Numbered from the stretch's first letter, positions 925 through 54,073 are shown. The stretch: DNA of 64,000 nucleotides from an uncultured Acidobacteriota bacterium (GCA_963800895.1 CAWDDA010000015.1:152994-216993); one strand, 5' to 3'. Notes: generated from the letters alone by a model not told the origin. Made by a program: numbers and translations.

Positions 925-1071
925 TTGAGTGTGCTGAGTGCTGAGTACTGAGTGCTGAGCCTGGAGTTCAAGCTTTTAGCTTGCTCTTGGAACTCGACTT
1001 GTCAAACAGCAAGCTAAAAGCTTGAACTCCAAACTCGGTCAGTACTCAGCATCTGAAGCGGTACAACGTAC
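925..1071. repeat. Composite palindromic intergenic element (heptamer TRCTGAG array + family-A core hairpin + family-D fragment)
   Basis: 4-5 tandem TGCTGAG/TACTGAG heptamers lie at 925-959. The core arms are GGAGTTCAAGCTTTTAGCTTGCT (963-985) and AGCAAGCTAAAAGCTTGAACTCC (1008-1030). A complementary CTCGGTCAGTACTCAGC lies at 1034-1050, and GCGGTACAACGTAC at 1058-1071. Confidence 0.9.
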
Positions 1072-4370: not shown

Positions 4371-4375
4371 AAACA

Positions 4376-4462
4376 GGCATGTTGTACCGCCTTATAGGCG
4401 GAATGGTGACTTTCTCAGGTTAAGAGTGCCACGATTCCGCCTATAAGGCGGTACAACGTACC
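4376..4462. repeat. Family-D hairpin-of-hairpins palindrome
   Basis: The left arm is GGCATGTTGTACCGCCTTATAGGCGGAATGGTG (4376-4408). The right arm is CCACGATTCCGCCTATAAGGCGGTACAACGTACC (4429-4462). Each arm contains its own CCGCC-N5-GGCGG mini-hairpin. Confidence 0.9.
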
Positions 4463-4577
4463 TAAGAGAAGAAAATGATAGAACTGGTCAGTGTTTCGCG
4501 GGATTTTGGGGATGCGAAAGTCGTGCATGCCTTGCGCGACGTGACGCTCAGGATCGAATCGGGGAGAGCGCGTCGCC

Positions 4578-5159: not shown

Positions 5160-7727
5160 GTGTTCTCCGCACTGGCTTCAGTCACGTGGAGACAGTGGAG
5201 GCAGCATCGGCTGAGAACCCTCCTTACGATAGCGGGAATTGCCATTGGAGTCGCGGCCTTCTTCGCGGTAAGAACTGCCAATCGATCCCTTCTCAGTTCG
5301 CTCACGCTTACAATCGAAAAACTTGCCGGGAAGGCCACTCTGCAGGTAGTCGCGGGCGAAGCGGGCTTTCCGGAAGAGGTTTGGGAGATCGTCAGGTCGA
5401 CTCCGGGAGTAAAGATCGCCGCCCCGGTGATCGAAGTGATCGCCACGACAGCTTTTGAAGACACGTCGAACCTGATGATAGTCGGTGAAGACACGCTCGG
5501 TGAGCAGGGTCTGCGCGAATTTCAATTTGACGAGTCGTCGATCGAGCTCAATGACCCGCTCGTCTATCTCGCTCAGCCAAACTCGGTAATCGTCTCTCGC
5601 ACATTCGCGACAAAGCACGGACTCAAGGAAGGCGACAGGCTGCCGCTCTTCACGTCTCACGGGCGAAAAGAATTTATTGTGCGCGGAGTTTTTCAGCCCA
5701 CGGGAATTGGCGAGGTGTTTGGCGGTCAGATTGCAGCTATGGATGTCTTCTCGATGCAGCACGTCTTCAATCGAGGAAGAAACTTTGACCGGATCGACGT
5801 AATGAGTGCGCCTGGCGTGGACGTCGAAGACCTGAGAACAAGGTTGAGCAGCCAGCTAAAGGAGTACAGCGCCATCGAAGTTACGCGGCCGGCTGCTCGA
5901 GGGAAGGGAATCGAAAATGCGGTAGCTGCTATGAGCCTTGGAATGACGATCGCCAGCTTCATCGCGCTGCTTGTCGGAGTCTTTATCATATTCAACACCT
6001 TCAGCATCTCTGTGAATCAGCGCTGGAAAGAGATTGGCGTCCTGCGCGCAATTGGCGCCGAGCGCCGCAATGTCCAGATGATGTTTCTGGCCGAGGCAGT
6101 GATCATGGGACTGATCGCCTCGGTTGCAGGGATCGCGCTAGGGTTCTACGCAGCTCGCGGTGCAGCGGCCGTGATGGGTAATATTGCCGCATCGATCTAC
6201 GGATACGTGTCAACCCCCGAACCGCCTGAATTCCATTGGAACTTTGCATTCGCAGCGTTGGCGCTTGGCGTCATTGCGTCAGTTGTTGCCGCGTGGCTTC
6301 CGTCGCGTGCCGCTTCGCGTCTCAATCCTGTGCTTGCGCTGCACAACATTGAGACACGACAACGCGAGGCTGTGCTCGGACGGCCACGTCTTGTGTTCGG
6401 CCTGTTTCTGATCATTGCCGCACTGCTGCTGATCCGGTACGCGCCCGTAAGGGTTGGCTTGATGCTTCAGTTTGGTTATCTGGCGATAATTCTGCTCGGT
6501 CTTCTGATCTTACTACCAAAGCTTTCGGAGCTGATCGCGCGCGCTCTTCGCCCACTAGCTGATCGGATGTTTGGAACTGAAGGTGTGCTCGCAGTGGATT
6601 CGATGATCGGTGCGCCGCGCCGTACTTCGGCGACTGTGGCAGCCTTGATGATCGGCCTCTCGTTTGTCTTTTCGACCGCTGCGTATGTGCAGAGCTACCA
6701 GAGAACTGTTGTCTCGTGGATGGACCGGATGCTCAACTCAGATATTTTCATTACGACTTCAGAGATGGCGCGCAGTCGCACCTATCACTTCAGTGAAGAA
6801 TTGAGTGCAAAGGTTGCCGCCCTCCCGGGAGTCAAAAGAATCGAGAGTGTCAGGTTTACATTTGTGCCATACGCCGGTGACAGCATTGCCATCATATCGC
6901 TCGAGATGGACGGCTGGTTTGCCAGAGTGCGGGATATCATTGAGGGCGCCCGTGAAGACGAAGCGCGTGCAGCAGTTGTATCTGGTCAAGGGGTTATCGT
7001 TGCACGAAATTTTGTCACGCGATTTGGAGCGCGTGTCGGTGATCGAATCAGAATCGATACTCCGACCGGAGTGCTCGAGCGGCCGATTGCAGGAGTGATT
7101 GAAGACTACACATCTGAAAAGGGCACGCTCTTTATGGACCGCGGGCTCTACAAGCAGTACTGGCGCGACAGCGCTGTCGACATCCTGGACGTAAATCTCA
7201 ATCCGGGAGTGGATCCAGATGCATTCAAGACCGAGCTCCAGCGCACTCTTCGAGGAGAGCATCGCGCGTTTATCTACACTAATCAGGAGTACAAGCGCTG
7301 GGTCATCAACCTGATTGATGGATTTTTTGTCCTCAATTACATGCAGATGGGAATTGCGATCGTCGTCGCGGCGCTCGGAATAGTGAACACTCTCATCATT
7401 TCGGTTTCTGAACGTAAGCGTGAGCTGGGCATGTTGCGGGCGCTGGGCGGGTTGAAGCGACAGATCAAAAAGATGGTTTTGCTTGAAGCTGTCGCGATCG
7501 GCTTGATCGGGATCGCAGCTGGCGCGCTTGCCGGTGCACTGAACACCTATTTTCTTGTGCGTACGGCCGCCACAATGATTGGGGGCTATACGATACCTTT
7601 CTATTTCCCGCTGTGGCTCGTGCTGGTCACACTTCCCATTGTGACGCTCATAGCCTTGTTGGCGGCATGGTGGCCCGCCAGGCGCGCGGTCAACCTTGGA
7701 GTCATTGAAGCTATCGGGTATGAGTAA
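5160..7727 (+). CDS. ABC transporter permease with duplicated FtsX/MacB-type domains
   Basis: 855 aa. Two blocks each have a TM helix, a large periplasmic domain and three C-terminal TMs. The start overlaps the ATPase stop (TGAGTG). Confidence 0.85.
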   Translation: MFSALASVTWRQWRQHRLRTLLTIAGIAIGVAAFFAVRTANRSLLSSLTLTIEKLAGKATLQVVAGEAGFPEEVWEIVRSTPGVKIAAPVIEVIATTAFEDTSNLMIVGEDTLGEQGLREFQFDESSIELNDPLVYLAQPNSVIVSRTFATKHGLKEGDRLPLFTSHGRKEFIVRGVFQPTGIGEVFGGQIAAMDVFSMQHVFNRGRNFDRIDVMSAPGVDVEDLRTRLSSQLKEYSAIEVTRPAARGKGIENAVAAMSLGMTIASFIALLVGVFIIFNTFSISVNQRWKEIGVLRAIGAERRNVQMMFLAEAVIMGLIASVAGIALGFYAARGAAAVMGNIAASIYGYVSTPEPPEFHWNFAFAALALGVIASVVAAWLPSRAASRLNPVLALHNIETRQREAVLGRPRLVFGLFLIIAALLLIRYAPVRVGLMLQFGYLAIILLGLLILLPKLSELIARALRPLADRMFGTEGVLAVDSMIGAPRRTSATVAALMIGLSFVFSTAAYVQSYQRTVVSWMDRMLNSDIFITTSEMARSRTYHFSEELSAKVAALPGVKRIESVRFTFVPYAGDSIAIISLEMDGWFARVRDIIEGAREDEARAAVVSGQGVIVARNFVTRFGARVGDRIRIDTPTGVLERPIAGVIEDYTSEKGTLFMDRGLYKQYWRDSAVDILDVNLNPGVDPDAFKTELQRTLRGEHRAFIYTNQEYKRWVINLIDGFFVLNYMQMGIAIVVAALGIVNTLIISVSERKRELGMLRALGGLKRQIKKMVLLEAVAIGLIGIAAGALAGALNTYFLVRTAATMIGGYTIPFYFPLWLVLVTLPIVTLIALLAAWWPARRAVNLGVIEAIGYE

Positions 7728-7770
7728 GTGCGGGCACGAGCGATCGAGCTGGTGACTCTGAGGGAGAGAA

Positions 7771-7939
7771 GAATTCACCGCAGAGAGCCCAATCGATTTG
7801 AGATTTGAGATTTGTCGTTTGAGATTTGTCATTTGCAACTTGTCACTCAAGGTGCGCCTTGCCACGACAAATAACAAATCCAAAATCTAAAATCTAAAAT
7901 CTCAAATCTCAAATGGATTGGGCACTCTGCGGTGAATTC
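7771..7939. repeat. Palindromic element with 7-nt-periodic stems (GATTTGA family)
   Basis: The outer arms are GAATTCACCGCAGAGAGCCCAATCG (7771-) and its complement ending at 7939. Seven tandem heptamers (GATTTGA/GATTTGT/CATTTGC...) lie at 7795-7843, and seven complementary heptamers (ATCTCAA/ATCTAAA/ATAACAA...) lie at 7864-7912. Confidence 0.9.
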
Positions 7940-7984
7940 TTCGCGTTCCACCATTCCTCCTGAAGGCGATACACTCTCCAAGGC

Positions 7985-10717
7985 ATGTGCGCGCGACGAT
8001 CTGACAGACTCGACTTTCCTCCCTTCCACGTTCTTCCCGATGTTGATCTGCTCTACCGCGGCGACGAAATAGTTACACTGCAACCACGTGCCGTGCAGTT
8101 GCTTCGCTATCTCGCCGAGCATCACAAGCGTGCCGTCTCGAAGGCCGAGCTGCTTGCAAAGGTTTGGGACAACGCATTCACGAGCGACGCTGTGATCAAG
8201 CAGGCAATAGCGCAAGTGCGGCGAGCGCTCGGAGATGATGTCCATCACGCTCGTTACATCGAAACATTCCATTCACGCGGCTATCAGTTTATAGGCCGGG
8301 TGAGGCGGTCTGCGCCACCAGCGCCGGGCGCTGACATTCAGATGTCAGTTCCCGATCCCGATTATGATCAATTGGTCGGTCGCGAGCTGGAGTTTGATCT
8401 GCTCTGTTCCGAGTACAGGAGAACACTTGAGGCTCAGACTCAGCCATTACTCGTTACCGGTGAACCCGGCGCCGGCAAGACGCAACTCGCACGACGATTT
8501 GGAAAATGGGCCCAGGACCAGGGAGCGCTCACTCTTTACGCACGATTCTTTGACTATGGCGCCAGTCAGCTTGCGCCCTACGAGATATTCCTCGGATTGC
8601 TGCGGACAGCTCTTGAATGTACGGACCTGAGAGAGGCCGTTCGTGAGCGCGTTCGCGTCGAGCTGCCGGAAGAATTGTTTGCTGCATCTGACATATCACT
8701 TGCGGGTCGCATCAGAGCCTTTTCCGCTGATCAATCACGCGTGATCTCGCCAATTGCCCAGAGCTTTGACCGATTGAGCCTCGAGCGTCCAATCGTTTTG
8801 ATCTTTGACGATCTTCAATGGGCGGACGACGCAAGCCAGAGCTGTCTTGAATACATGATACGCACGGCGTCGACTAACCGGCTGATGATCCTCGGATTGG
8901 CCCGCTCGGTTGAGATTGCGCAAACATCAGATACATCGGCCGGCTGGTTAGAAGGCCCGGTAGCCAAAAGCAGCTTCACAGTTCTCGCGCTCAAGCCGCT
9001 CGATGAGTCCAACTGTGCGCGAGCGATTGAGGCGATATTCGGTGGACCAGCGACCGCGCCGGATGTGCCGGTTGATGATCTTAGGATGCTTCGCGACGTG
9101 ACCGGAGGTAATCCCTATTTTCTGACTGAGATGCTGCGTCTGCTTCAAGCAGAGGGTGCAATCGATCGACGTGGTGCACCTGAAGAACGCTGGCAGTGGT
9201 CTGGCATACGGGATCTTCACCTGCCGGCTACGCTTATGCTCATGTCACAAACAAAGCTCGAGCGGCTCTCGCCCGAAACCCGCGAAGTCCTTGAACACGC
9301 TGCTGTCATCGGTGATGAGTTCAGAATGGACACGATATGTTTAACGGCAGCGCGAGGCGCGACTGAGATTCAGTTTGCTATCGACGAAGGGTTGCGGAGC
9401 GGTGTGCTCTCGATTAAGGGGCTCTCGAGCGGAGAGGACTGTCGTTTCTACCACAATGTTCTCAGACGTACCCTTTACGAAAGCCTGCCGATGCGCAAGC
9501 GAAGGCGGCTGCATGCGCAGACAGCACGATCGCTACAGACTGTCTACGCTGACAAAGCAGATCGCGTCGCTGCAGCGATCAGTTCGCAGTTTGAAGCCGC
9601 CGGTGATACGAAGCAGACTTTTGAATGGGGAATGCGAGCGTGGAAAGCAGCTCGCAGCCGCTGGCAATGGCGCGAGGCAGCGGCGGCCATCGAGCGAGCC
9701 TGGCGCGCGGTGCAGGCAATGGACGCGGCAAGTGGAGAGACCATCTCTCCTCAGCAAAGGATAGATTGCCTTCTCGGTCTTGGCGAAACTTATGGTGCCA
9801 TTGGAAGAATGAAAGATTCCGAAGCTGCGCTTGTCACAGCATTGGCGCTTGCTGAAACGCTCGGCGATCGCGCAAGAACCGCGGGTTCGCTTTTGAGCTT
9901 GAGTCAGACACGTTTCGGTCGTGCTCATTATAGCGAGACGATTGCTCCGGCAGAGAGAGCACTTGAGATCTATGGCGAGATCGGTGATGAGGAAGGTGTC
10001 AGCCTTGCACTGCTTCATTTGAGCAACGCACGTGTTGCGATGGGAGACTACGGGCAGGCTGCGACTCTACTGGAAATGATGCTTCAGGTCGTCGAGCCCG
10101 ATAGTCTGGCGGCCAATATTGCCTACGGAATTCTAGGATGGGCTCGAGTGCGCGAGGGCCGGATTGCCGAAGGGATTCCATTGATCGAAAAGGCAATTGC
10201 AGCACATCGGCTCGAGCTGAATTTGAGGGAGATCTCTCGCCTGGAGCTTCGCCTGCACTGGGCATACTTTCGCCAGGGGGACTACGAAAGTGCTCTACGG
10301 CTGGCACTTCAATCGCGGTCGGGATTTTCTCAGACAGGCGACCTCCCTGGGGTTGCCAAAGCGAACATCGGGTTTGGGCAGGTGCGAATTGCTGAGGGTA
10401 TGCTTGCGGAAGGCAGACAGATTGTGGCCGCGGCGCTTCGCGAGCTGCAGAGGAGCGGCGATTCTCATAGTGAGGCTGAAGCCTTATGGATTCTCGGAAA
10501 GGCTGATGCCGCGAACCATGATGTGGAGAATGCGAGGAAGAACTTTGATCGCGCCCTTGAGCTGGTGCGCGCGATAGGGGACCGCGATGACGAGTTTCGA
10601 ATATTGCTTGATGTTGCTGCGCTTGAGTCAAAGTCCGGAAATCCTCAGGCCGGTTTGTGCACTTCCGACGAAGCCCTGAGAATTGCGCGCGAGCTCGGGA
10701 ATTCTGAAGGCATGTAG
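7985..10717 (+). CDS. Transcriptional regulator: OmpR/CadC-type winged helix + STAND/AAA ATPase + TPR array
   Basis: The N-terminal wHTH reads LLYRGDEIVTLQPRAVQLLRYL...RGYQFIG. Walker A is GEPGAGKTQL and Walker B is VLIFDDLQWAD. The C-terminal ~400 aa are TPR-like repeats. Confidence 0.75.
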   Translation: MCARRSDRLDFPPFHVLPDVDLLYRGDEIVTLQPRAVQLLRYLAEHHKRAVSKAELLAKVWDNAFTSDAVIKQAIAQVRRALGDDVHHARYIETFHSRGYQFIGRVRRSAPPAPGADIQMSVPDPDYDQLVGRELEFDLLCSEYRRTLEAQTQPLLVTGEPGAGKTQLARRFGKWAQDQGALTLYARFFDYGASQLAPYEIFLGLLRTALECTDLREAVRERVRVELPEELFAASDISLAGRIRAFSADQSRVISPIAQSFDRLSLERPIVLIFDDLQWADDASQSCLEYMIRTASTNRLMILGLARSVEIAQTSDTSAGWLEGPVAKSSFTVLALKPLDESNCARAIEAIFGGPATAPDVPVDDLRMLRDVTGGNPYFLTEMLRLLQAEGAIDRRGAPEERWQWSGIRDLHLPATLMLMSQTKLERLSPETREVLEHAAVIGDEFRMDTICLTAARGATEIQFAIDEGLRSGVLSIKGLSSGEDCRFYHNVLRRTLYESLPMRKRRRLHAQTARSLQTVYADKADRVAAAISSQFEAAGDTKQTFEWGMRAWKAARSRWQWREAAAAIERAWRAVQAMDAASGETISPQQRIDCLLGLGETYGAIGRMKDSEAALVTALALAETLGDRARTAGSLLSLSQTRFGRAHYSETIAPAERALEIYGEIGDEEGVSLALLHLSNARVAMGDYGQAATLLEMMLQVVEPDSLAANIAYGILGWARVREGRIAEGIPLIEKAIAAHRLELNLREISRLELRLHWAYFRQGDYESALRLALQSRSGFSQTGDLPGVAKANIGFGQVRIAEGMLAEGRQIVAAALRELQRSGDSHSEAEALWILGKADAANHDVENARKNFDRALELVRAIGDRDDEFRILLDVAALESKSGNPQAGLCTSDEALRIARELGNSEGM

Positions 10718-10814
10718 TACCCACCTGGCATGTCGCTACCGGCGTTTAGCCGGAATCGTTACATTCGAGGTATTAGAATGCAACGATTCCGGCTAAAGGC
10801 CGGTACAACATGCC
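10709..10814. repeat. Family-D hairpin-of-hairpins palindrome (contains the stop codon of the upstream gene)
   Basis: GGCATGTAGTAC (10709-10720) encodes the last codons G-M-stop of the regulator. The arms are GGCATGTCGCTACCGGCGTTTAGCCGGAATCGTT (10727-10760) and AACGATTCCGGCTAAAGGCCGGTACAACATGCC (10782-10814). Confidence 0.9.
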
Positions 10815-14013: not shown

Positions 14014-14058
14014 GGCGCGGCATTCACGAAAGAGCTCGTGAAGCCGCGCCTTTCCTTT
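14014..14058 (+). terminator. Rho-independent terminator after the S8 peptidase gene
   Basis: The stem is GGCGCGGCATTCACGA / TCGTGAAGCCGCGCC (one bulge), followed by TTTCCTTT. Confidence 0.6.
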
Positions 14059-14060
14059 GA

Positions 14061-14864
14061 ATGCGTATTAAATCCCATCCAAGAGTCATACTGGCAACTA
14101 TCAGTGCAGCCGTCCTTCTGACAGTTACAGGCATCGCGGTTGCACAGAACCAGGACGCTCGCAAGATCGTGGAGGGCGTCTATCGTCAGGATACGAGCCG
14201 GGATGCGATGTGGCGGGGAACGCTCGATGTAATAGACAAAAAAGGTACATCACGTAAAAAAGGGTTTGCCTTCAGGCGTTTTGGCAGCTTTGGCAACAGT
14301 AAGACGATTGTCCAGTTCACTGATCCGCCCGAGGTGAAGGGGGTGGGACTGCTATCGATCAACCAGCGTGGTGCGAACGAGCGGCAATGGATGTTTACAC
14401 CAGCTATTCAGCGTGTTCGACGTATCGCGCCCCAGGAGCGTGGACGACGCTTCCTCGGGACCGACTTTACCAACGAGGACATGGCTGAACGAGTGCTCGA
14501 GGATTTCGAGTACAAGTTGCTTGCTGATGGTGAAGAGATTGACGGTCGCAAGACATGGAAGGTTGAAGCAGTGCCGGTGGAGGCGGGCCGTTCCCAGTAC
14601 AAATCCGTCTATTTATGGGTCGCGAAGGACATTCCGTGCACGGTCCTCGCGGAATACTATGATGAGAGCGGGAAGCTTGCACGTAAGCTCAAGGCGGGTC
14701 AGATTGAGAAGATATCGGGGATATGGCTTGCGCGTCGCGTTGAGATGAGCACGCCGTCGGAGAACTCACGGACCATGCTCGTGATTGAGGATGTAAAATT
14801 CAATCAGGGGCTCAAAGAAGATATGTTTACCTTGCAGTCATTGGAGAAGGGTAATGTGTTTTGA
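14061..14864 (+). CDS. LolA-like outer-membrane lipoprotein-sorting protein family
   Basis: It has a signal peptide. The conserved stretch WMFTPAIQRVRRIAPQERGRRFLGTDFTNEDM is typical of the LolA_like/outer-membrane lipoprotein-sorting family. Confidence 0.7.
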   Translation: MRIKSHPRVILATISAAVLLTVTGIAVAQNQDARKIVEGVYRQDTSRDAMWRGTLDVIDKKGTSRKKGFAFRRFGSFGNSKTIVQFTDPPEVKGVGLLSINQRGANERQWMFTPAIQRVRRIAPQERGRRFLGTDFTNEDMAERVLEDFEYKLLADGEEIDGRKTWKVEAVPVEAGRSQYKSVYLWVAKDIPCTVLAEYYDESGKLARKLKAGQIEKISGIWLARRVEMSTPSENSRTMLVIEDVKFNQGLKEDMFTLQSLEKGNVF

Positions 14865-16227
14865 GGCGTTGGGGAAGAAACGATTCCGCCTGACGGCGGT
14901 ACTACATGCCCTGGTGTTGCTCGTTGTGGGAGGCACGACGTCCGCCGCACAGATCTCAACGACGCAGCCATGGCTCGAAGACACGAATGCGCAATACATT
15001 ATCTTTGCTCAGGGTACGCTGCAGGACAATGCCCGCGAATTTGCAGTGCCGGTAGAGGCGAAGACTTTTCGATTACAGTTCTGGTCGCGGATGAGCGGCG
15101 ACGTCACGTTCGAGATCATAGGTCCTGGTGGTAAGCCTCAGAGTCTGACCGAACCCAATGTCAACCCAACTGTGGGAAAAGACCGATCCTCGGTGGTCGT
15201 GTTTGATCCAAGACCAGGTCTCTGGAAGATCAGGGTACGCGGCAACGGCAGCTTTACGGCAGGTGTCACGACCCAAAGCGAACTATACGTATGTTGCCTC
15301 GGTCTGGTCAGCGCAGCAGGTCAACAGGGACAACCGCTGCCGCCACTGGTGCAGTTGAGAACACGGCTTCAGGCGATGCAGGTATCGCTTGCCGGCTTTG
15401 AGGTGAAGTCTGTTGAGTTTCATCTGGTTGATGAGAATGATCAGGTGATTCAGCCGGTCAAGATGCGCCAGAATGATTTTTCCAATCCTTACCTGATGAA
15501 TCTGCTCGTAGAGGTGCCAGCGCGTTCATTCCGCATACGCACACGCGGGATTGACCAGACGGGCTATACGTTCCAGCGAACGTTTGCGACGCTATTTCAG
15601 CCGCCGGCTGAGCCGATTGAAGGACCTCCAGCTCAGGACAAGTTTCTCGGTGAGCTTGCTCAACAGGCCGAGGCCGGTCCTTATCAGGTGGTGCGAGCCT
15701 CGGTGATCGACGTTGCCGACGAGGGGTTTCTGTCGGAGCGCGGCACGGTCATCGGATTACGTCTGAAATACTCGCTTCAATTCCCGCGCGATGGCTTCTA
15801 TTCACCAGTTCCCCAGGTCTATCCGGAGAGGATCAATTCAGGCTATACCGGAGCCCTCAGCCTGAAGACACACCGGGTGACGATTGAACCTCGGCCCGAA
15901 GGTCTCACTTCATCTGGTGATCTGCGATACATTTCGCGCGCGATGTACAGGGGTGGGCAGGTGTATCGTTTTACGATCGATCTGATCCCGAACTATGCGA
16001 TTTATCTCGAGCCTTCCCGCAGCTTTTGTATCGCCGTCAAGACATTCGCGCAGGGGACACGCGACCGGTTTTATGCAGAGGTGACCAGCGATGCGCGACT
16101 TCGGTTTCGCTATTCGATCAGCGGCACTGACTACGACGGACGACAACCCGTAACCACGGATCAGGCCTACATTCCTAATAGCTGGTATCAAGGATATCTG
16201 AGAGATGGCGCGGTGGAGTGTCAGTGA
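14854..16227 (+). CDS. Hypothetical secreted beta-rich protein
   Basis: 457 aa. The signal peptide LHALVLLVVGGTTSAAQ is partly encoded by a solo family-D half element at 14878-14910. The start overlaps the LolA-like gene by 11 nt. I recognise no domain. Confidence 0.5.
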   Translation: MCFEALGKKRFRLTAVLHALVLLVVGGTTSAAQISTTQPWLEDTNAQYIIFAQGTLQDNAREFAVPVEAKTFRLQFWSRMSGDVTFEIIGPGGKPQSLTEPNVNPTVGKDRSSVVVFDPRPGLWKIRVRGNGSFTAGVTTQSELYVCCLGLVSAAGQQGQPLPPLVQLRTRLQAMQVSLAGFEVKSVEFHLVDENDQVIQPVKMRQNDFSNPYLMNLLVEVPARSFRIRTRGIDQTGYTFQRTFATLFQPPAEPIEGPPAQDKFLGELAQQAEAGPYQVVRASVIDVADEGFLSERGTVIGLRLKYSLQFPRDGFYSPVPQVYPERINSGYTGALSLKTHRVTIEPRPEGLTSSGDLRYISRAMYRGGQVYRFTIDLIPNYAIYLEPSRSFCIAVKTFAQGTRDRFYAEVTSDARLRFRYSISGTDYDGRQPVTTDQAYIPNSWYQGYLRDGAVECQ

Positions 16228-16261
16228 GGAGGGGGTCAGTGGCCAGGGAGCGCCGGGGTCA

Positions 16262-16326
16262 TCTGAGTTCCGGCTTTAGCTTGTCGTGAGCGTTAAATGC
16301 AATACAAGCTAAAGCTCGGACTCAGA
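16262..16326. repeat. Family-A variant palindrome
   Basis: The arms are TCTGAGTTCCGGCTTTAGCTTGT (16262-16284) and ACAAGCTAAAGCTCGGACTCAGA (16304-16326). The right arm encodes the last residues and stop codon of the minus-strand dehydrogenase gene. Confidence 0.85.
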
Positions 16327-17370
16327 CCCGACCGCCGCCGCTACCCAGGCATAGTTAGGTACAAGCACTGCCTTGATGTCATTGCCCTTTGCTTCGAGCA
16401 TTCGGTGAAACGCAGTCACCCCTTCATTGAGCCTGAACGGCGTTGTCCAGCTTGTCGCGTCAATCTTTCCGTCAGCTATCAGGTCGAGAGCGATTTGAAG
16501 CTCTTCCATCGATGCAGCATAAGAGCCATGAACCTGCCTCTCTGCAAGCGTTATTTCGTGTGAGTCGATGGTTACTGAGTTCTCGTGCAAACCAATCCAG
16601 ACGGTGGCGCCGCCAGGCCGAGTCATCGCAAGGGAGAGCCGCTTGGTGATCGCTCCGCCAACAGCGTCCACAACTACATCAGCACCTTCGCCATTGGTCA
16701 GTTCGAAAACCTTCTTGACGACGTTTTCATTTCGAGGATTGATTGTTGCGCCGGCACCGAGGTTCGATGCCTGAGCAACCCGCTCAGGGATCATGTCGCA
16801 CGTGATTGCCTTCAATCCGAGCATCGCGCTGAATGCCTGCTGGCAGAACAGGCCAATGGGGCCCGCCCCAATGACCACTAATGACTCTGGCTCGAGGTGC
16901 TTCACAAGATTTACAACGTGTACGCCATTAGCTGCCGGTTCAGCCAGGCACGCTGCTTCGGCCGGCACCTTATCAGGCCAACGGATCAGGGAACGCTCCG
17001 GTGCGACGACATATTCAGCAAACCCGCCGGGCATATGCATCCCAAAGAGTTGACGCCGTGCGCACAGGTGACCACGACCGGTTCGGCATCGTACACACTC
17101 GCGGCAGCCGAAGAGCGAGTGCGAAACGACACGATCTCCTGCTTTGAAGAACGGAACGTTTGGACCCACCTCATCAATGACACCGCAGAATTCGTGACCC
17201 ATCACCAATGGTGGGACACGTCGAGGGCTTCGGCTCTTGAAGGCTTCGAGCTCGCTGCCGCAAATGCCGCACGCCGAAACACGCATTCTGACTTCACCCG
17301 AGCTCGGGCGCGGGTCCGGCCAGTCAGCCATTGTCAATTGATCGTAAGCGGGATAAAGAAGTGTCAGCAC
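16309..17370 (-). CDS. Zinc-dependent medium-chain alcohol/polyol dehydrogenase
   Basis: CGICGSE and GHEFCGVI are Zn-ligand motifs. GAGPIGL is the Rossmann motif. 353 aa. Confidence 0.85.
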   Translation of the reverse strand: MLTLLYPAYDQLTMADWPDPRPSSGEVRMRVSACGICGSELEAFKSRSPRRVPPLVMGHEFCGVIDEVGPNVPFFKAGDRVVSHSLFGCRECVRCRTGRGHLCARRQLFGMHMPGGFAEYVVAPERSLIRWPDKVPAEAACLAEPAANGVHVVNLVKHLEPESLVVIGAGPIGLFCQQAFSAMLGLKAITCDMIPERVAQASNLGAGATINPRNENVVKKVFELTNGEGADVVVDAVGGAITKRLSLAMTRPGGATVWIGLHENSVTIDSHEITLAERQVHGSYAASMEELQIALDLIADGKIDATSWTTPFRLNEGVTAFHRMLEAKGNDIKAVLVPNYAWVAAAVGSESEL

Positions 17371-17373
17371 AGT

Positions 17374-18228
17374 CTAAGCTCCACTAAGTCTGTAGATTCT
17401 GGATGCATTATCTGCAAAGAGCGAGCTGAGATGTTCGGCAGACTCGTTAATCGTGACCTCTTCGAGTGCCTTTACCCAGCGCTCTATACTCGATGCAAGC
17501 GTGCAAACGGGCCAATCGCTGCCGAACATGATGCGGTCCCACCCGAATGACTCGATGATATGAACAATAACTGGACGAAGGTCCTCGGCGTTCCAATTTG
17601 CATGATCTGCCTGTGTCACGATTCCTGAAATCTTACACGCCACGTTCGGCAGTGCCGAAAGTCTGGTAATGTCCGCCCGCCATTGCGATAGCGCTCCTGC
17701 AGAGCTTTCTCCGATTGGCGGATTGCCGCAGTGGTCGAGAATGAACTGGACTCGGGGGGCGCTTTCGACAAGCTCGATCGCCAATGGAAGCTGCCGCGAG
17801 AGCACGCAGATATCAAATGAGAGTCCATACTCGCTGAGTTTGACAACGTTTTCCCTGAAGAGTTGCGATCGTGAAACCTCATCCGGCGCGACATGGAGAA
17901 GGCGGCGAATTCCAATCAGTTTGGGATGACGATGAATCGATTCGATGTAGTCTTCAAAACCAGGTTTCTCGGGACGCGCGGCTGCAACTACACCTGCAAC
18001 GCGGCTCCCCGGACGGGCGGCCATCTCGAGCAAAAACGCGGTCTCGCCTGGTATCGCAGGTTCGTCGACGTCGGCTTCGACAAGAATCGTCTCTTCGATT
18101 CCGAGGTTCCGGACCTCCAGCCAGTAGTCATCAGGCGAGAATGAGCGGTTCAGCGGAGGCTTCGAAACCGTCCAGGAGTAAGGCAACCGCTCGAGGTCCC
18201 AGACGTGCTGGTGGGTGTCAATGATCAT
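17374..18228 (-). CDS. Amidohydrolase-2 family metal-dependent hydrolase (lactonase/decarboxylase-like)
   Basis: The MIIDTHQHVWD N-terminus and FILDHCGNPP are typical of PF04909-type TIM-barrel hydrolases. It sits 3 nt upstream of the dehydrogenase gene, so the two form an operon. Confidence 0.8.
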   Translation of the reverse strand: MIIDTHQHVWDLERLPYSWTVSKPPLNRSFSPDDYWLEVRNLGIEETILVEADVDEPAIPGETAFLLEMAARPGSRVAGVVAAARPEKPGFEDYIESIHRHPKLIGIRRLLHVAPDEVSRSQLFRENVVKLSEYGLSFDICVLSRQLPLAIELVESAPRVQFILDHCGNPPIGESSAGALSQWRADITRLSALPNVACKISGIVTQADHANWNAEDLRPVIVHIIESFGWDRIMFGSDWPVCTLASSIERWVKALEEVTINESAEHLSSLFADNASRIYRLSGA

Positions 18229-18234
18229 AAGAAA

Positions 18235-18358
18235 GTGGTCAGTGGTCGGTGGTCAGTGTTTGGAGTTCAAGCTTTAGCTTGCTCTCGACACGCTCGATCT
18301 CAAGCAGCAAGCTAAAGCTTGAACTCCAAACACTGACCACTGACCACCGACCACTGGC
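18235..18358. repeat. Composite palindrome: GTGGTCR heptamers + family-A core
   Basis: The heptamers GTGGTCA GTGGTCG GTGGTCA lie at 18235-18255. The core arms are TTTGGAGTTCAAGCTTTAGCTTGCT (18259-18283) and AGCAAGCTAAAGCTTGAACTCCAAA (18306-18330). Complementary CACTGAC/CACCGAC heptamers lie at 18331-18358. Confidence 0.9.
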
Positions 18359-18360
18359 CC

Positions 18361-19992: not shown

Positions 19993-20056
19993 CTTCTCCT
20001 CCTGTTCTACTCAGCACTCCGTACTCTGCACCTCCTATTATATAGGATCTGGGCCG

Positions 20057-21403: not shown

Positions 21404-21424
21404 TAGATATTGATTCCCGTTCGG

Positions 21425-22978
21425 TTAGTTTCGTCGTTTTTGAACCGCAGGCGCAGGCTTTGCAGGCTTCGCGGTCACCGGGGTCATTCGGATTGTCGGG
21501 CACGCAGGTGCCACCTTGAGCTTGGTCACCGTCCCTTGCCGTTTCAGGAGGTCTTCGCGTTTCAGACCCACACGTGCCTGGTCTTCAGCTGATATCATGA
21601 CGCCTACAACACGGGGCCGGTTCTTGATGTATTTATCCACATAGCACTTGATATCAGCTCGCGTCACAGCCTTCACGGCGTCGACGTACTTAGAGTAATA
21701 GTCCAGACCCGAGCTTGCCCACCAGAAGCTCACCGTATGAGCGTACTCTGAGGGCTTCTCGCGGTCATACGTCTCGTTGACCTCGAGCAACGTCTTCGCA
21801 CTTTCGAGCTGCTCGTCCGTAATGTAATCGGGTGAATCGAACTTTTCTATCTCAGCGTTGATCGCATCCAGAGCACTTTTCACCTTTTCAGGAGTCGTCT
21901 GCGCACTGATTGAGATTGGACCGACGTTGCGTTGCGTATAGTAATTGATTCCAACTCCGGTCGTGATCCCGGAATCAATGAGCGTGCGCGAGAATTTGGA
22001 ATCGGGCTGGTTGACGATAAACGAAAATACGTCCGCCGTGTATGTTGCCGGCTCATCAATGTCAGTTGACGGACCATGATACGACACTTGCAGCGTCACG
22101 GCCTGGACTGGTTGATTCACTATCACTGCCTCATCAGCCTCGAGAACCGGATGCCGTGGTACAGGCTCAGCGGAGAATGGATCAGCACCTCTCGGCCAGT
22201 CTCCAAAGATCTCCTGAGCAAGTCTGAACACTTCCGTCGCGCTAACATCTCCCGACGCTACAAGCGCCGCATTGTTGGGATGGTAGAACTTCCTGCGGAT
22301 CGTCTGCATCATCTCAGGAGTGGCGCTTGAGACCGTCTCGCGGCTCCCGCCGGGATTCTTGCGTGATTGGTACTTGTACCACAGCCGGTCATCCATCGAT
22401 CGTATGAGATAGTAGAAGGGATTTGACAGCTGTCTCGAGAGCTCATCGAGCACGACTTCGATCTCCTGATCAAGCTCGCGTTTGTCGAAGAGTGGATAAC
22501 GGATTGAATCCTTCATGAGCATCATTGCTTCGCGCAGCCCGGTCTTTACGGAAGTTGTGTAATAGGTGACAACCTCCTCGCGCGTCTGTGCATTCTGCAT
22601 CATGCCCAGGTCTTCAACCTTGTCGAGATAACCTTCATCCTTCGAGCGCTCATTCGATTTGAAAAACATGTGCTCGTAGAGGTGCGACAACCCGTTGTAT
22701 TCGGGCGGCTCGGTGTATGCGCCATTCTTGACCGCGATTTCGACGGTTACCATTGGCACCGAACGGTTCTCAATGACTATTACCTCGAGACCGTTGCGGA
22801 GAGTCGTGCGCTTCCACTCGGGCTTCGCAAAGGAGATGAGACTAAGTCCGCAAACAACAACCAGAACTGCGGCTGTTGAGCGAACCAATCGGTAGGATAT
22901 TCTCCTGGTGATCGGTGTTTGTTGGTCGGTGGTCGGTGTCATTGTTACTTTCTTTCCGTGCTGTCGTCCATTGAGCAT
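21425..22978 (-). CDS. M16 family zinc peptidase (pitrilysin/insulinase-like)
   Basis: The HLYEH (HxxEH) zinc motif follows NGLEV...VKNGAYTEP. 517 aa. The N-terminal TM or signal segment is AAVLVVVCGLSLISFA. Confidence 0.8.
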   Translation of the reverse strand: MLNGRQHGKKVTMTPTTDQQTPITRRISYRLVRSTAAVLVVVCGLSLISFAKPEWKRTTLRNGLEVIVIENRSVPMVTVEIAVKNGAYTEPPEYNGLSHLYEHMFFKSNERSKDEGYLDKVEDLGMMQNAQTREEVVTYYTTSVKTGLREAMMLMKDSIRYPLFDKRELDQEIEVVLDELSRQLSNPFYYLIRSMDDRLWYKYQSRKNPGGSRETVSSATPEMMQTIRRKFYHPNNAALVASGDVSATEVFRLAQEIFGDWPRGADPFSAEPVPRHPVLEADEAVIVNQPVQAVTLQVSYHGPSTDIDEPATYTADVFSFIVNQPDSKFSRTLIDSGITTGVGINYYTQRNVGPISISAQTTPEKVKSALDAINAEIEKFDSPDYITDEQLESAKTLLEVNETYDREKPSEYAHTVSFWWASSGLDYYSKYVDAVKAVTRADIKCYVDKYIKNRPRVVGVMISAEDQARVGLKREDLLKRQGTVTKLKVAPACPTIRMTPVTAKPAKPAPAVQKRRN

Positions 22979-23044
22979 CTGCGAATATTAAGAAGCTCTC
23001 CAGGCGATCAGGTTTGTCAGGGGGAAGGCTTTCTTGAGATTGAT

Positions 23045-23842
23045 CTACCGCCAGAACGCAAACCAGCTCTTCGTTTTCTTGCGACCCGCCAGTGCATCCA
23101 GATCAGGATCCAGCTGATAGGGAATCGCCCGGTCTTCGATGAGCGCCTGTGGATTCTCTTCAACCAACGCACGAGCGTATTCGGAGCCGACAATTTCGCT
23201 TGCGATCGCGACGGCTTGCGAAAGATTGGGTCTACGCCGGTCCTGGTGATGCGCATCAGTTGCCATGAAGTGCGCCATCCCCGCTTCGAGGATCCGCTTC
23301 GCAGTCTGATAAGACTCCATCCCGAAACTCTTGGTCAGGCTTCCTGCGTCGATCTGTGAAAAAGCTCCGCGCTCGATCAGAGTTGCGAGCACTTCCGGGC
23401 TTCTTTGAATTTTTTTGTTTCGCTCGGGATGCGCGATCACCGGTGTGATTCCGGCATTAAGCATCTCGAAGACGGTTATTTCGATGTTCGCAGGCACCAT
23501 GTCAAATGCGAACTCCAGAAGCATATACGAAGTGCCATTCAGTTTGATTCGTGTATTCGGTAACGCCGCTTCCTGGAATATCTCATGGCTATAACGGACC
23601 TCGCCCCCGGGAACGAGCTCAATGATCCCATTCGTCGCTGCCTTTACCTGTGTGATTCGCTCCAGAATCGTATCGCGTGTGGGCGTATGATGAACACCAT
23701 CAAACATGTGAGGCGTCGCTATTATTACTTTGATCCCGTCCTCTGCCGCTGCCCTGCACATCGCCACAGACTCATCAATCGAAAGTGATCCGTCGTCTGT
23801 CGCCGGCAGAATGTGGCAGTGAATATCAACCATCCCGGCCAT
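23045..23842 (-). CDS. CpsB/CapC-type PHP-family protein-tyrosine phosphatase
   Basis: MVDIHCHILPATDDG...IIATPHM...AHPERN...TDAHH are the metal-binding motifs of the capsular polysaccharide tyrosine phosphatase family. Confidence 0.75.
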   Translation of the reverse strand: MAGMVDIHCHILPATDDGSLSIDESVAMCRAAAEDGIKVIIATPHMFDGVHHTPTRDTILERITQVKAATNGIIELVPGGEVRYSHEIFQEAALPNTRIKLNGTSYMLLEFAFDMVPANIEITVFEMLNAGITPVIAHPERNKKIQRSPEVLATLIERGAFSQIDAGSLTKSFGMESYQTAKRILEAGMAHFMATDAHHQDRRRPNLSQAVAIASEIVGSEYARALVEENPQALIEDRAIPYQLDPDLDALAGRKKTKSWFAFWR

Positions 23843-23889
23843 AGATCCCCCGAAACTCTTCCTTATCTTCTTAATAAGCCAATCTCCAT

Positions 23890-23918
23890 ATTATCAGTGA
23901 TGTAGCGTGCTCGTTCAA
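23890..23918 (-). promoter_or_regulatory. Candidate sigma-70-type promoter for the CpsB-like gene
   Basis: The minus strand reads TTGAAC-N17-GATAAT, about 45 nt upstream of the ATG. Confidence 0.3.
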
Positions 23919-24502: not shown

Positions 24503-26536
<2,034 letters not shown>

Positions 26537-26573
26537 TTTTTGTTCAACAGCAGGTATCACCCGTACTCTAAAC

Positions 26574-26606: not shown

Positions 26607-26610
26607 AAGG

Positions 26611-26755
26611 AAGGTGCTGAGTGCTGGAAGAAGGTGCTGATATGTTGCAGTGCTGAGTGCTGAGTATTTCAAGCGTTGGTTTGTTCTCAACATCCAAGCT
26701 TGCATGAACAAGATGAAAGCATGAACTCAAAACTCAGCACTCAGCACTCAGCAAT
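26611..26755. repeat. Composite palindrome with TGCTGAG heptamers and a degenerate family-A-like core
   Basis: GGTGCTGAGTGCTGG...GTGCTGAGTGCTGAGTA forms the left side, and CTCAGCA x3 (26733-26753) the right. The degenerate central core is TTTCAAGCGTTGG...GCATGAACTCAAAA. Confidence 0.8.
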
Positions 26756-33093: not shown

Positions 33094-33097
33094 GTTT

Positions 33098-53886: not shown

Positions 53887-54073
53887 TACTGCTCCGTAGG
53901 CGGAATCCCCATTATTTATCATTTGTCATTTGCCATTTATCATTTGTTATTTGTGATTTGTCATGGAAGGCGACTGCCGGAGAATGACAAACGACTTGCA
54001 CAAATAACAAATGACAAATGCAAATGACAAATGACAAATAATAAGGATTCCGTCTTCCTCGGTACTACCTGCC
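53878..54073. repeat. Composite palindrome: family-D-like outer arms + ATTTGTC heptamer stems
   Basis: GGCATGTAGTAC (53878-53889) provides the G-M-stop of the upstream gene. Seven heptamers ATTTATC/ATTTGTC/ATTTGCC... lie at 53914-53962. Complementary CAAATGA/CAAATAA heptamers lie at about 53999-54043. The outer right arm GGATTCCGTCTTCCTCGGTACTACCTGCC ends at 54073. Confidence 0.9.

What the first reader, a model, noticed from the sequence alone, without database searches (positions are those of the whole stretch)
7795..7912. Hairpin stems built from 7-nt tandem repeats (four different heptamer families)
**What the sequence shows.** At least five elements have long stems made of tandem heptamers, with the complementary heptamer array on the other side of the loop.

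| Heptamer family | Left array | Right array |
|---|---|---|
| GATTTGA / GATTTGT | 7795-7843 | 7864-7912 |
| ATTTGTC / ATTTATC | 53914-53962 | about 53999-54043 |
| GTGGTCA / GTGGTCG | 18235-18255 | 18331-18358 |
| TGCTGAG / TACTGAG | 925-959 | 1034-1050 |
| TGCTGAG / TACTGAG | 26611-26664 | 26733-26753 |

**Why it matters.** Different heptamer sequences share the same architecture of 3-7 copies arranged as inverted arrays. That argues the periodic structure itself is what is generated or selected, not one sequence. Possible causes are slipped-strand expansion of hairpin stems, or binding of a protein with 7-nt register. I do not know a described element class with this property.
Basis: seen in the sequence. 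Interest (0 to 1): 0.62.

Follow-up and report, generated by a model that had tools for sequence, protein, structure and literature searches.

The report
Nested hairpin repeats with heptamer arms
The long hairpins with arms made of 7-base tandem repeats are real; they are one module of a fast-changing population of small palindromic repeats that fill the gaps after genes in a soil acidobacterium, a partly described kind of element whose origin and function remain unknown.

Summary
Observation confirmed. All five hairpins exist at the stated places and fold far better than shuffles (z -4.4 to -14.6). Period 7 is the only enriched tandem period in the window (10 arrays against 0-1 for other periods).

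They are modular, nested extragenic palindromes in a Blastocatellia-type acidobacterium.
- **Focal element (7768-7942).** It is present in a close strain, absent from three genomes about 81% identical, and replaced by an unrelated giant palindrome in a fourth.
- **Inner unit (7790-7920).** About 130 nt, with the same order of variant heptamers. It recurs at a second locus in the close strain, so the hairpin spreads as a unit.
- **Arm length.** Arms change by whole units and not in step: left 7/7/7, right 7/6/5.
- **Arm origin.** The order of variant units is mirrored between arms, so the arms begin as inverse copies.
- **Centres are swap sites.** The same outer arms hold a REP doublet in one genome and a heptamer hairpin in another.
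- **REP core.** It lies next to REP-associated tyrosine transposase (RAYT) genes in five other genomes. There it lacks heptamer arms.
- **Pure heptamer hairpins.** They also occur in Verrucomicrobiota.

Inverted heptamer arrays are already described in Xanthomonas. This is a new variant of a known kind. Mechanism and function remain inferred.

The parts
7768..7942 (.). Focal composite hairpin. It lies between the stop codon of an FtsX/MacB-type permease gene (TAA at 7725-7727) and the start of a regulator gene (ATG at 7985).
   Evidence: Inverted repeat I1 has 77-nt arms, 83% complementary. DNA fold is -61.4 kcal/mol, z -13.8. The element is present in L093 and absent in L095, L096 and L099.
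7790..7920 (.). Inner dispersed unit, CAATC ... GATTG: left arm, loop, right arm.
   Evidence: A three-way alignment with the orthologous copy (L093:5885-6060) and a second, non-orthologous copy (L093:14400-14585) shows similarity starting at CAATC and ending at GATTG. The flanks are unrelated in the second copy. By BLAST the second copy is 87% identical over 135 nt.
7795..7843 (+). Left arm: 7 units (ATTTGAG, ATTTGAG, ATTTGTC, GTTTGAG, ATTTGTC, ATTTGCA, ACTTGTC).
   Evidence: 77% matches. The unit number is unchanged in L093 and in the Logan contigs X2 and X3.
7864..7914 (+). Right arm: 7 units of AAATCTA/AAATCTC type (complement of the left-arm units).
   Evidence: 93% matches. L093 has 6 units here. 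One soil contig carries a 15-nt deletion at 7876.
7768..7789 (.). Outer stem, left half (GAAGAATTCACCGCAGAGAGCC). It pairs with 7921-7942.
7921..7942 (.). Outer stem, right half (GGCACTCTGCGGTGAATTCTTC).
7950..7975 (+). Solo half-copy resembling the 'family D' palindrome arm (CCATTCCTCCTGAAGGCGATACAC). It is part of the roughly 245 nt that relatives lack.
   Evidence: Read, by comparison with 4423-4463 and with L092 (CACGATTCCTCCTGAAGGCGGTACAAC).
53898..54055 (.). ATTTGTC-type heptamer hairpin (arms 53911-53962 and 53999-54043) nested inside the two halves of a family-D palindrome (GTAGGCGGAATCC ... GGATTCCG).
   Evidence: The order of variant units is mirrored between the arms: score 28 against a permutation mean of 17.5, with 0.4% of permutations as good. 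Orthologues are L100 and L101.
18234..18358 (.). GTGGTCA-arm hairpin with a REP-A doublet at its centre (18260-18329). It fills the whole gap between two minus-strand genes.
   Evidence: The orthologue in L092/L058 has 4 and 5 units instead of 3 and 3-4.
925..1055 (.). TGCTGAG-arm hairpin (left arm 4 units, right arm about 2.5) with a REP-A doublet at 961-1032. It starts 2 nt after a stop codon.
   Evidence: Relatives carry other palindromes at this junction.
26611..26753 (.). TGCTGAG-arm hairpin with a degenerate REP-A centre and an interrupted left arm.
   Evidence: The orthologue in L092 is shown.
16233..16345 (.). Degenerate REP-A doublet (16262-16326) with decayed GTGGTCA-type arms, between convergent genes.
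   Evidence: The same junction holds long GTGGTCA arms plus a REP-A doublet in L092. In L093 it holds long arms plus a copy of the focal inner hairpin. In L094 it is empty.
22907..22938 (+). Unpartnered GGTGGTC-type array. It is a 33-nt in-frame insertion directly after the ATG of the minus-strand gene.
   Evidence: It is absent from the orthologue in L058/L092.
20010..20030 (-). Unpartnered, degenerate 3-unit TGCTGAG-type array in the 64-nt spacer before the S41 peptidase gene.
   Evidence: The orthologous spacer in L092 (11373-11467) holds about 13.5 units.
4375..4463 (.). Family-D palindrome with a plain loop (context: the un-nested form of the outer layer of the 53898 element). A second copy lies at 10737-10805.

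Best explanation
The heptamer-stem hairpins are one module of a population of small, non-coding, extragenic palindromic repeats (REPIN- or MITE-like) in a soil acidobacterium.

**What a hairpin is.** It consists of two inverse copies of a short heptanucleotide array around a short variable loop.

**How it behaves.**
1. *Shown:* whole hairpins are gained, lost and copied to new gene junctions.
2. *Shown:* they sit almost only in gaps after genes.
3. *Shown for two junctions, inferred in general:* the centre of an existing palindrome is a preferred place for the next one. This gives Russian-doll structures: a REP doublet inside heptamer arms, a heptamer hairpin inside family-D arms, or a heptamer hairpin inside other heptamer arms.
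4. *Shown:* once in place, each arm behaves as a microsatellite and gains or loses whole 7-nt units independently.
5. *Shown:* the order of variant units shows that the two arms start as mirror copies.
6. *Shown in five other genomes, untestable in this one:* the conserved REP-A core belongs to a REP family that lies beside RAYT (REP-associated tyrosine transposase) genes.

**Inferred, not shown.**
- Movement goes through single-stranded hairpin DNA handled by such an enzyme.
- The exposed loop of a hairpin is the favoured target.
- The enzyme that moves REP-less heptamer hairpins is unknown.
- The reason for a period of 7 is unknown.
For: **Presence or absence at the focal junction.**
- The element is present in the window and in L093 (92-99% nt identity).
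- It is absent in L095, L096 and L099 (about 81% identity), where only 15 nt separate the stop codon from the next ATG.
- L094 carries an unrelated palindrome with 135-nt arms there.

**Dispersal as a unit.** L093 holds a second copy of the inner hairpin with the same unit order and a similar loop, at another junction.

**Multi-copy arms.** Summed contig depth over the arms is 16-65 against 2-5 in the flanks, 400-1200 against about 3 and 26-155 against 2-5. Contigs join the same arms through different loops of 9-32 nt and have different flanks.

**Centre swapping.**
- At the 16262 junction the same GTGGTCA outer arms hold a REP-A doublet in the window and L092, but the ATTTGAG hairpin in L093. 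L094 is empty there.
- At the 53898 junction the same family-D outer arms hold an ATTTGTC hairpin in the window and L100, but a REP-A doublet in L101.

**Turnover at other junctions.** Junctions 925, 10737 and 28190 each hold different palindrome families in different relatives.

**Arms as microsatellites.**
- Focal right arm: 7, 6 or about 5 units, with the left arm fixed at 7.
- E18234: 3/3-4 units against 4/5 in the orthologue.
- L093 outer arms: 6 and about 15 units.
- A solo array: 3 units against 13.5 in the orthologue.

**Arms as mirror copies.**
- Unit-order permutation tests give 0.004 (53898) and 0.017 (L093 second copy).
- In-register arm identity is 0.86-0.96 against 0.64-0.86 after a 7-nt shift, in most REP-A-centred copies.

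**Independence of the two modules.**
- REP-A doublets occur in more than 90 loci, mostly Verrucomicrobiota. About 1 of 70 of those has any heptamer arm, against 11 of 18 in the related acidobacterial MAG.
- Heptamer hairpins without REP-A occur in the window, L062 and several Limisphaerales MAGs.

**RAYT link.** ORFs abutting REP-A doublets in L036, L063, L080 and L033 (L019 partial) match NF047646, REP-associated tyrosine transposase. E is about 1e-20 over the full profile length. They also match E. coli TnpA-REP, 4er8; tblastn results are.
Against: - No transposition event was observed directly.
- The second copy of the focal hairpin rests on one low-coverage ('3x') metagenome contig.
- No target-site duplication or defined ends beyond CAATC/GATTG were seen.
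- An exact 21-mer from the focal arm found no further copies in JGI metagenome contigs.
- No enzyme is linked to REP-less heptamer hairpins.
- The RAYT matches score 73-74 bits, just under the curated cut-off of 80.
- Solo arrays that appear as blocks, and one that grew from 3 to 13.5 units, show that some arrays arise or grow without any hairpin.
- Differences between relatives could also come from recombination between strains rather than transposition.
- Nothing here explains the period of 7.
Confidence: 0.55

Rival explanations
1. Local generation without transposition. Heptamer microsatellites arise and expand by replication slippage. A fold-back or template switch at a nearby short palindrome then copies the array in inverse orientation. 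Later templated correction between the arms (quasi-palindrome correction) keeps them alike.
For: - Solo arrays of the same unit families exist and change greatly in length: 3 against 13.5 units. Other solo arrays lie at 22907-22938 and L092:17545-17581.
- Loops are locus-specific while arms are alike.
- Mirrored unit order is what a fold-back copy would give.
- Window and L100 differ in unit order, yet each is internally mirrored.
- Heptamers are reported as the most over-represented long simple repeats in many prokaryotes, with a polymerase-slippage explanation proposed (as cited in PMC4679880 and PMC4692102).
Against: - Only a few unit families are used at many loci and in many genomes, rather than units derived from local sequence.
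- The 22907 array has no seed unit at the empty orthologous site.
- An identical unit order plus a similar loop at two loci in L093 needs copying of the whole hairpin.
- Hairpin centres are replaced while the arms stay.
Confidence: 0.2
2. Selected cis-acting signals. The hairpins would be kept because they act on the transcript or the DNA. They could be two-way transcription stops, 3'-end protectors of mRNA, or binding arrays for a protein that reads a 7-nt register. In this view mobility is secondary.
For: - All five lie in gaps after genes and begin 2-45 nt after a stop codon.
- Junctions that lose one palindrome usually hold another, as if any strong hairpin is wanted there.
- The same units are conserved across species.
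- Every acidobacterial unit carries TGA on one strand. Three units therefore give stops in all three frames (read).
Against: - Three close relatives do without any element at the focal junction, with 15 nt between the genes.
- No U-tract follows the stems, and the terminator scan finds none at the hairpins.
- No Rfam family matches.
- The arms are often unequal and decayed (925, 16262, 26611).
- No RNA data could be obtained.
- The stop-codon property fails for the verrucomicrobial AACATCC unit and the Xanthomonas GGGAATC unit.
Confidence: 0.15
3. Plain microsatellites whose complementary partners are coincidental, or artefacts of assembly.
For: Arm lengths vary independently. Assemblies often break at these repeats: short Logan contigs end in the arms.
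Against: - All 10 strong arrays in the window are partnered within 110 nt, with none in shuffles.
- Unit order is mirrored between the arms.
- The same hairpins appear in independent long-read and short-read assemblies from different samples.
Confidence: 0.03

Closest known systems
Inverted pairs of GGGAATC heptamer arrays in Xanthomonas campestris and X. axonopodis (Rehm et al. 2015, PMC4692102)
   Same: - Intergenic tandem heptamers.
- 70-75 cases per genome of two arrays in convergent orientation close together, able to form stem-loops.
- Array length differs between species, while the type (single or inverted pair) is usually kept.
   Different: - One G-rich, quadruplex-forming unit there. 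Here there are several unit families, including A/T-rich ones.
- No nesting with REP-type palindromes, no presence/absence polymorphism and no paralogous whole-hairpin copies were reported there.
- The host phylum is different.
REP / BIME / REPIN elements with their RAYT transposase (Bertels and Rainey 2011, PMC3116915; Di Nocera et al. 2013, PMC3733652; E. coli TnpA-REP structure 4er8)
   Same: - High-copy extragenic palindromes at gene ends.
- The replicative unit is an inverted doublet forming a hairpin, with conserved arms and a variable spacer.
- The REP-A core lies beside RAYT-like genes in five genomes.
- Excision is documented for REPINs.
   Different: - The focal element and the 53898 element contain no REP unit.
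- Their arms are tandem heptamers that are not palindromic on their own.
- No GTAG or CGTC tag is present.
- Nesting of one palindrome in the apex of another is not part of the REPIN description.
STRR (short tandemly repeated repetitive) heptanucleotides of heterocyst-forming cyanobacteria (Mazel et al. 1990; cited as ref. 39 in PMC4692102)
   Same: Several different intergenic heptamer units coexist in one genome, with unknown function. From memory, one unit (TTGGTCA) is close to GTGGTCA here.
   Different: STRR are defined as tandem arrays, not as inverted pairs. The host is a cyanobacterium. The unit sequences are recalled from memory and were not checked here.
TAACTGA direct heptamer repeats of marine Beggiatoaceae (MacGregor 2015, PMC4679880)
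   Same: One heptamer is repeated 2-6 times at many intergenic sites. It is shared across distant lineages, and a binding protein has been proposed.
   Different: There almost all sets are direct repeats upstream of start codons, with only one inverted case among 170 sets. Here most are inverted pairs after stop codons.
MITEs (miniature inverted-repeat transposable elements)
   Same: Small, non-coding and dispersed, with inverted ends and insertion polymorphism between strains.
   Different: No target-site duplication and no related autonomous element were found. The arms are internally repetitive.

Membership tests
Inverted heptamer simple-repeat pairs (Xanthomonas type, PMC4692102) | Tandem heptanucleotide arrays located in intergenic DNA. 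| tested here: met
   Period-7 arrays are shown. All lie between ORFs.
Inverted heptamer simple-repeat pairs (Xanthomonas type, PMC4692102) | Two arrays of complementary sequence in convergent orientation close together. | tested here: met
   Five of five hairpins qualify. The arms lie 21-97 nt apart.
Inverted heptamer simple-repeat pairs (Xanthomonas type, PMC4692102) | Array length differs between related genomes while the paired type is kept. | tested here: met
   E18234 has 3/3-4 units against 4/5 in the orthologue. The focal element has 7/7 against 7/6. E26611 is paired in both genomes.
Inverted heptamer simple-repeat pairs (Xanthomonas type, PMC4692102) | G-rich unit able to form G-quadruplexes. 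| tested here: not met
   ATTTGAG, ATTTGTC, TGCTGAG and GTGGTCA have no G-runs. Only the GGGGTCA arms of the related MAG might qualify; this was not tested.
REP / REPIN-RAYT system | Short conserved palindromic unit in high copy in extragenic space. | tested here: met
   This holds for the REP-A core only: 15 hits against 1.7 expected in the window, and more than 91 loci in public genomes. The focal and 53898 hairpins contain no such unit.
REP / REPIN-RAYT system | Inverted doublet of REP units forming a hairpin (REPIN). | tested here: met
   REP-A doublets lie at 961-1032 and 18260-18329.
REP / REPIN-RAYT system | A cognate RAYT (Y1/HUH transposase) gene flanked by the REP units in the same genome. 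| not testable with these tools
In other genomes, RAYT-like ORFs abut REP-A doublets: L036, L063, L080, L033 and L019. They match NF047646 at E about 1e-20 and 73-74 bits against a cut-off of 80.
REP / REPIN-RAYT system | Evidence of mobility (insertion or excision polymorphism). | tested here: met
   Orthologous junctions are empty, occupied, or occupied by another family. This is comparative evidence, not a direct observation of movement.
MITE | Terminal inverted repeats with a target-site duplication, and a related autonomous element. | tested here: inconclusive
   The arms are inverted, but no duplication is visible at the edges of the focal insertion. No gene was found enclosed by distant partner arrays.
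Intrinsic (Rho-independent) terminator | G+C-rich stem with a short loop, followed by a U-tract. | tested here: not met
   No terminator-like site falls at the hairpins. The overall count equals that of the shuffles: 18 against 17.7.
Cyanobacterial STRR | Tandem heptamers of the STRR1-3 units in heterocyst-forming cyanobacteria. | tested here: not met
   The host is an acidobacterium. Nearest genomes and protein names are Acidobacteriota and Blastocatellia. The unit sequences differ.

The most novel reading that the evidence does not exclude
Heptamer-arm hairpins may be a distinct, widespread class of mobile palindrome, present in Acidobacteriota, Verrucomicrobiota, Xanthomonas and perhaps cyanobacteria. 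Their tandem 7-nt arms would be the recognition ends of an as yet unidentified enzyme or DNA-binding protein that reads a 7-nt register. Together with REPINs they would integrate preferentially into the single-stranded apex of existing hairpins. Bacterial gene junctions would then accumulate Russian-doll palindromes through a so far undescribed target choice.
Probability: 0.2. Interest if true: 0.75.

Novelty: new variant of a known kind. Interest (0 to 1): 0.5.

Why it matters
- **Scale.** These hairpins occur about once per 13 kb in this window. By extrapolation that would be several hundred per genome in an abundant but poorly studied group of soil bacteria.
- **Sequence evolution.** They are the fastest-changing sequence between close relatives.
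- **Effects on genes.**
  - At 18234 the hairpin fills the whole spacer inside what looks like an operon.
  - At two other gene ends the surrounding family-D palindrome supplies the stop codon.
  - At 22907 an array adds 11 codons just after a start codon.
  - At 16262 the neighbouring gene's reading frame runs on into the palindrome.
- **Assembly.** They break short-read assemblies.
- **Mechanism.** If hairpin apexes are true integration targets, that would be a simple physical rule for where single-strand transposases land. It would explain composite palindromes (BIME-like mosaics) in general.
- **Strain typing.** Unit-number variation could serve as a strain marker, as STRR-PCR does in cyanobacteria.

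Tried and rejected
- **Metagenome scan.** The single scan, with a 21-mer of the focal arm, returned two unrelated hits. It added nothing.
- **Exact-protein look-ups.** They failed for L058:6897-7916, L058:6936-7916, P0125 and window:17374-18228.
- **RNA data.** One run of unknown type was the only candidate. Transcription and 3' ends were not examined.
- **Known RNA families.** Rfam gave no match in the window.
- **Terminators.** The simple terminator scan found nothing at the hairpins. I therefore reject a reading as a classical intrinsic terminator.
- **L012.** The 2.1 kb between its two REP-A doublets encodes an MFS transporter, not a transposase.
- **Distant partner arrays.** A search for partner arrays 250-4000 nt apart that might enclose a gene (a possible autonomous element) found nothing convincing.
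- **Strand rule.** In all acidobacterial hairpins the G/T-rich arm is the 5' arm. Only about three independent unit families are involved, and verrucomicrobial hairpins show both orders. I make no claim from this.
- **Ungapped arm comparison.** It is uninformative for elements with indels. I replaced it with a gapped permutation test.

Full report
**1. Observation**

- Tandem Repeats Finder reports period-7 arrays on both sides of each, and the inverted-repeat scan pairs them.
- Folded as single-stranded DNA they give -34.7 to -61.4 kcal/mol, with z-scores of -4.4 to -14.6. No shuffle folds as well.
- In my own scan period 7 is the only enriched period: 10 arrays against 0-1 for periods 4-14, and none in shuffles. 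All 10 arrays lie in the five hairpins.
- All five are intergenic and start 2-45 nt after a stop codon. The one at 18234 fills the entire gap between two genes. The flanking genes are unrelated to each other.
- There are no Rfam matches and no terminator-type sites at the hairpins.

**2. Anatomy**

The elements are layered.
- Three of them (925, 18234, 26611) have a conserved non-heptamer centre. It is an inverted doublet of TTGGAGTTCAAGCTTTAGCTTGCT, here called REP-A, with 15 hits against 1.7 expected.
- The 53898 element has the opposite order. A heptamer hairpin lies inside the two halves of another palindrome family ('family D'). That family occurs un-nested at 4375 and 10737.
- The focal element has a 22-bp outer stem, 7 + 7 units and a 22-nt loop.

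The window's own genome could therefore not be searched. All wider evidence comes from public contigs fetched by pattern or by protein.

**4. Host and relatives**

- A scan of species-representative genomes for the REP-A doublet returned more than 91 loci.
- One acidobacterial MAG (MFD00962.bin.2.203) is syntenic with window 14045-31548 at about 81% identity (L058/L092).
- Homologues of the permease upstream of the focal element led to four further loci:

| Locus | Identity to the window |
|---|---|
| L093 | same species, 92-99% |
| L095, L096, L099 | about 81% |
| L094 | about 71% |

- Homologues of the gene upstream of the 53898 element led to L100 (88%) and L101 (79%).
- Source names for these proteins are Acidobacteriota or Blastocatellia.

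**5. The focal element is an insertion polymorphism and a dispersed unit**

- L093 carries it.
- L095, L096 and L099 have only 15 nt between the stop codon and the next ATG.
- L094 has an unrelated palindrome with 135-nt arms at the same place.
- L093 also carries a second copy of the inner 130 nt (CAATC...GATTG). It has the same order of variant units (ATTTGAG, ATTTGAG, ATTTGTC, ATTTGAG, ATTTGTC, ATTTGTA, ACTTGTC) and a similar loop. It sits at a different junction, inside long GTGGTCA-type arms. That composite is 299 nt long and folds at -104 kcal/mol.
- Caveat: L093 is a low-coverage contig.

**6. Centres are exchanged while outer arms stay**

| Junction | Outer layer | Centre |
|---|---|---|
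| 16262 | GTGGTCA-type arms | REP-A doublet in the window (degenerate) and L092; the ATTTGAG hairpin in L093. L094 has no element at all |
| 53898 | family-D halves | ATTTGTC hairpin in the window and L100; REP-A doublet with short TGCTGAG arms in L101 |

Junctions 925, 10737 and 28190 hold different palindrome families in different relatives. At 10737 the window and the close strain L093 already differ.

**7. Arms**

*Short time scale.* The arms change independently and by whole units.
- The purer right arm of the focal element (93% matches) has 7, 6 and about 5 units in the window, L093 and a soil contig respectively.
- The less pure left arm (77% matches) stays at 7.
- Outer arms of 6 and about 15 units occur in L093. 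E925 has 4 and about 2.5.

*Origin.* The order of variant units is nevertheless mirrored between arms.
- Permutation tests give 0.004 for 53898, 0.017 for the L093 second copy, 0.06 for the focal element and 0.15 for L100.
- REP-A-centred copies in the MAG show 0.86-0.96 in-register identity.
- The arms therefore start as inverse copies and then drift.

*Solo arrays* of the same units exist.
- A 33-nt in-frame block lies after a start codon and is absent from the relative.
- A spacer array has 3 units here and 13.5 in the relative.
- In acidobacterial DNA not chosen for it, I count about 16 paired hairpins and about 5 solo arrays.

**8. Two independent modules**

- REP-A doublets are common in Verrucomicrobiota and occur in other phyla. 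There, about 1 of 70 has any heptamer arm, against 11 of 18 in the acidobacterial MAG.
- ORFs abutting REP-A doublets in L036, L063, L080 and L033 (an Acidobacteria MAG), with L019 partial, match the NCBIfam model for REP-associated tyrosine transposase. E is about 1e-20 over the full length, at 73-74 bits against a cut-off of 80. They also match E. coli TnpA-REP weakly.
- Heptamer hairpins without REP-A occur in the window, in L062 and in several Limisphaerales MAGs with other units such as AACATCC and GAGTTGA.
- Laid on soil and rhizosphere contigs, the heptamer arms carry 10 to several hundred times the depth of their flanks. Contigs join the same arms through different short loops, or skip the REP-A doublet altogether.
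- REP-A spacers are equally variable between copies. A variable loop is therefore no argument against mobility.

**9. Interpretation**

The best reading is a population of small palindromic repeats with four properties:
- they are copied as whole hairpins;
- they settle in gaps after genes;
- they land preferentially in the apex of existing palindromes;
- their arms then behave as heptamer microsatellites.

Movement through single-stranded hairpin DNA by a RAYT-type enzyme is an inference for REP-A, and an open question for the REP-less heptamer hairpins.

Rivals:
- Local generation by slippage plus fold-back copying. This fits the solo arrays and the locus-specific loops. It does not fit the shared unit order at two loci or the few unit families.
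- Selection as RNA or DNA signals. This fits the position after genes. It does not fit the empty junctions or the lack of terminator features.

**10. Comparison with the literature**

- Inverted pairs of heptamer arrays are described for Xanthomonas: 70-75 per genome, with length differences between species (PMC4692102).
- Heptamers are reported as over-represented among long simple repeats in many prokaryotes.
- REPIN-RAYT biology, including excision, is established (PMC3116915; PMC3733652).
- I found no description of heptamer-arm hairpins in Acidobacteria, or of palindromes nested apex-in-apex.
- Earlier notes of this scan reached a similar REP-plus-heptamer reading for other windows. I treated them as leads and re-derived the points used here.

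**11. Verdict**

This is a real, non-random feature. It is a new variant of a known kind. Interest is moderate, because the class is widespread and unexplained, and because the nesting and turnover evidence makes a concrete mechanism testable.

Noticed in passing
window 22907-22938: A GGTGGTC-type array of 33 nt sits directly after the ATG of the minus-strand gene. It adds 11 in-frame codons (TPTTDQQTPIT) ahead of a signal-peptide-like segment. The orthologue in L058/L092 lacks it exactly.
   Followed up: partly
window 20010-20030 (minus strand); L092:11373-11467: An unpartnered TGCTGAG array lies in the spacer between a TATATAAT-like box and the ribosome-binding site of the S41 peptidase gene. 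It has 3 degenerate units here and about 13.5 in the relative.
   Followed up: partly
L094:12600-13030: At the junction where the window holds the focal hairpin, a genome about 71% identical holds an unrelated palindrome of roughly 400 nt with arms of about 135 nt.
   Followed up: no
L093:14369-14667: A 299-nt three-layer hairpin fills the whole gap between convergent genes. It consists of GTGGTCA-type outer arms of 6 and about 15 units around a copy of the focal inner hairpin. It folds at -104 kcal/mol.
   Followed up: partly
L036:2009-2650, L063:4726-5337, L080:282-911, L033:228-890, L019:7430-7696: RAYT-like genes lie immediately beside REP-A doublets in four Verrucomicrobiota MAGs and one Acidobacteria MAG. 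They carry the HUH motif LPNHYH and the motif YxHHNP, and match NF047646 at E about 1e-20. The same REP sequence is thus shared across phyla.
   Followed up: partly
L003:5099-5186, L017:3500-3584, 5521-5614 and 7529-7612, L089:4275-4368, L083:6114-6192, L035:1078-1150: Limisphaerales and other Verrucomicrobiota MAGs carry pure heptamer-arm hairpins with short unique loops (units GAGTTGA, AACATCC/AACATTC, AGGTATG, GGTCGAA). These are separate from their arm-less REP-A doublets.
   Followed up: no
window 16309-16350 (minus-strand gene 16309..17370): The alcohol-dehydrogenase-like gene ends ...VLVPNYAWVAAAVGSESEL, while the orthologue ends ...VLIPE. The extra residues are read from the palindrome at 16262-16326.
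   Followed up: no
window 53878-53886 and 10709-10717: The left half of the family-D palindrome (GGCATGTAG...) supplies the last codons and the TAG stop of the upstream gene at both places. The same is seen in L100 and L101.
   Followed up: no
window 10737-10805 versus L093: At the junction after the regulator gene, the window has a family-D palindrome. The close strain L093 has a composite palindrome of another family (CCCTGGGAGCGCCGGCC...) between the same flanks.
   Followed up: partly
window 33096-33192: The left half of REP-A is triplicated in tandem (period 13, 3.2 copies) opposite a single right half.
   Followed up: no
window 925-1055, 7795-7914, 18234-18358, 26611-26753 and 53911-54043: Every heptamer unit here (ATTTGAG, ATTTGTC, TGCTGAG, GTGGTCA, and GGGGTCA in the relative) contains TGA on one strand. 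Because 7 is not a multiple of 3, three units give stop codons in all three frames, and each hairpin does so on both strands. This does not hold for verrucomicrobial AACATCC or Xanthomonas GGGAATC.
   Followed up: no
L096:5817-5925 and read laying joints 18326>18263: REP-A also occurs as tail-to-tail doublets (GCTTGAACTC...GAGTTCAAGC) with short spacers. These occur at the junction orthologous to window 925 and in many soil contigs.
   Followed up: no
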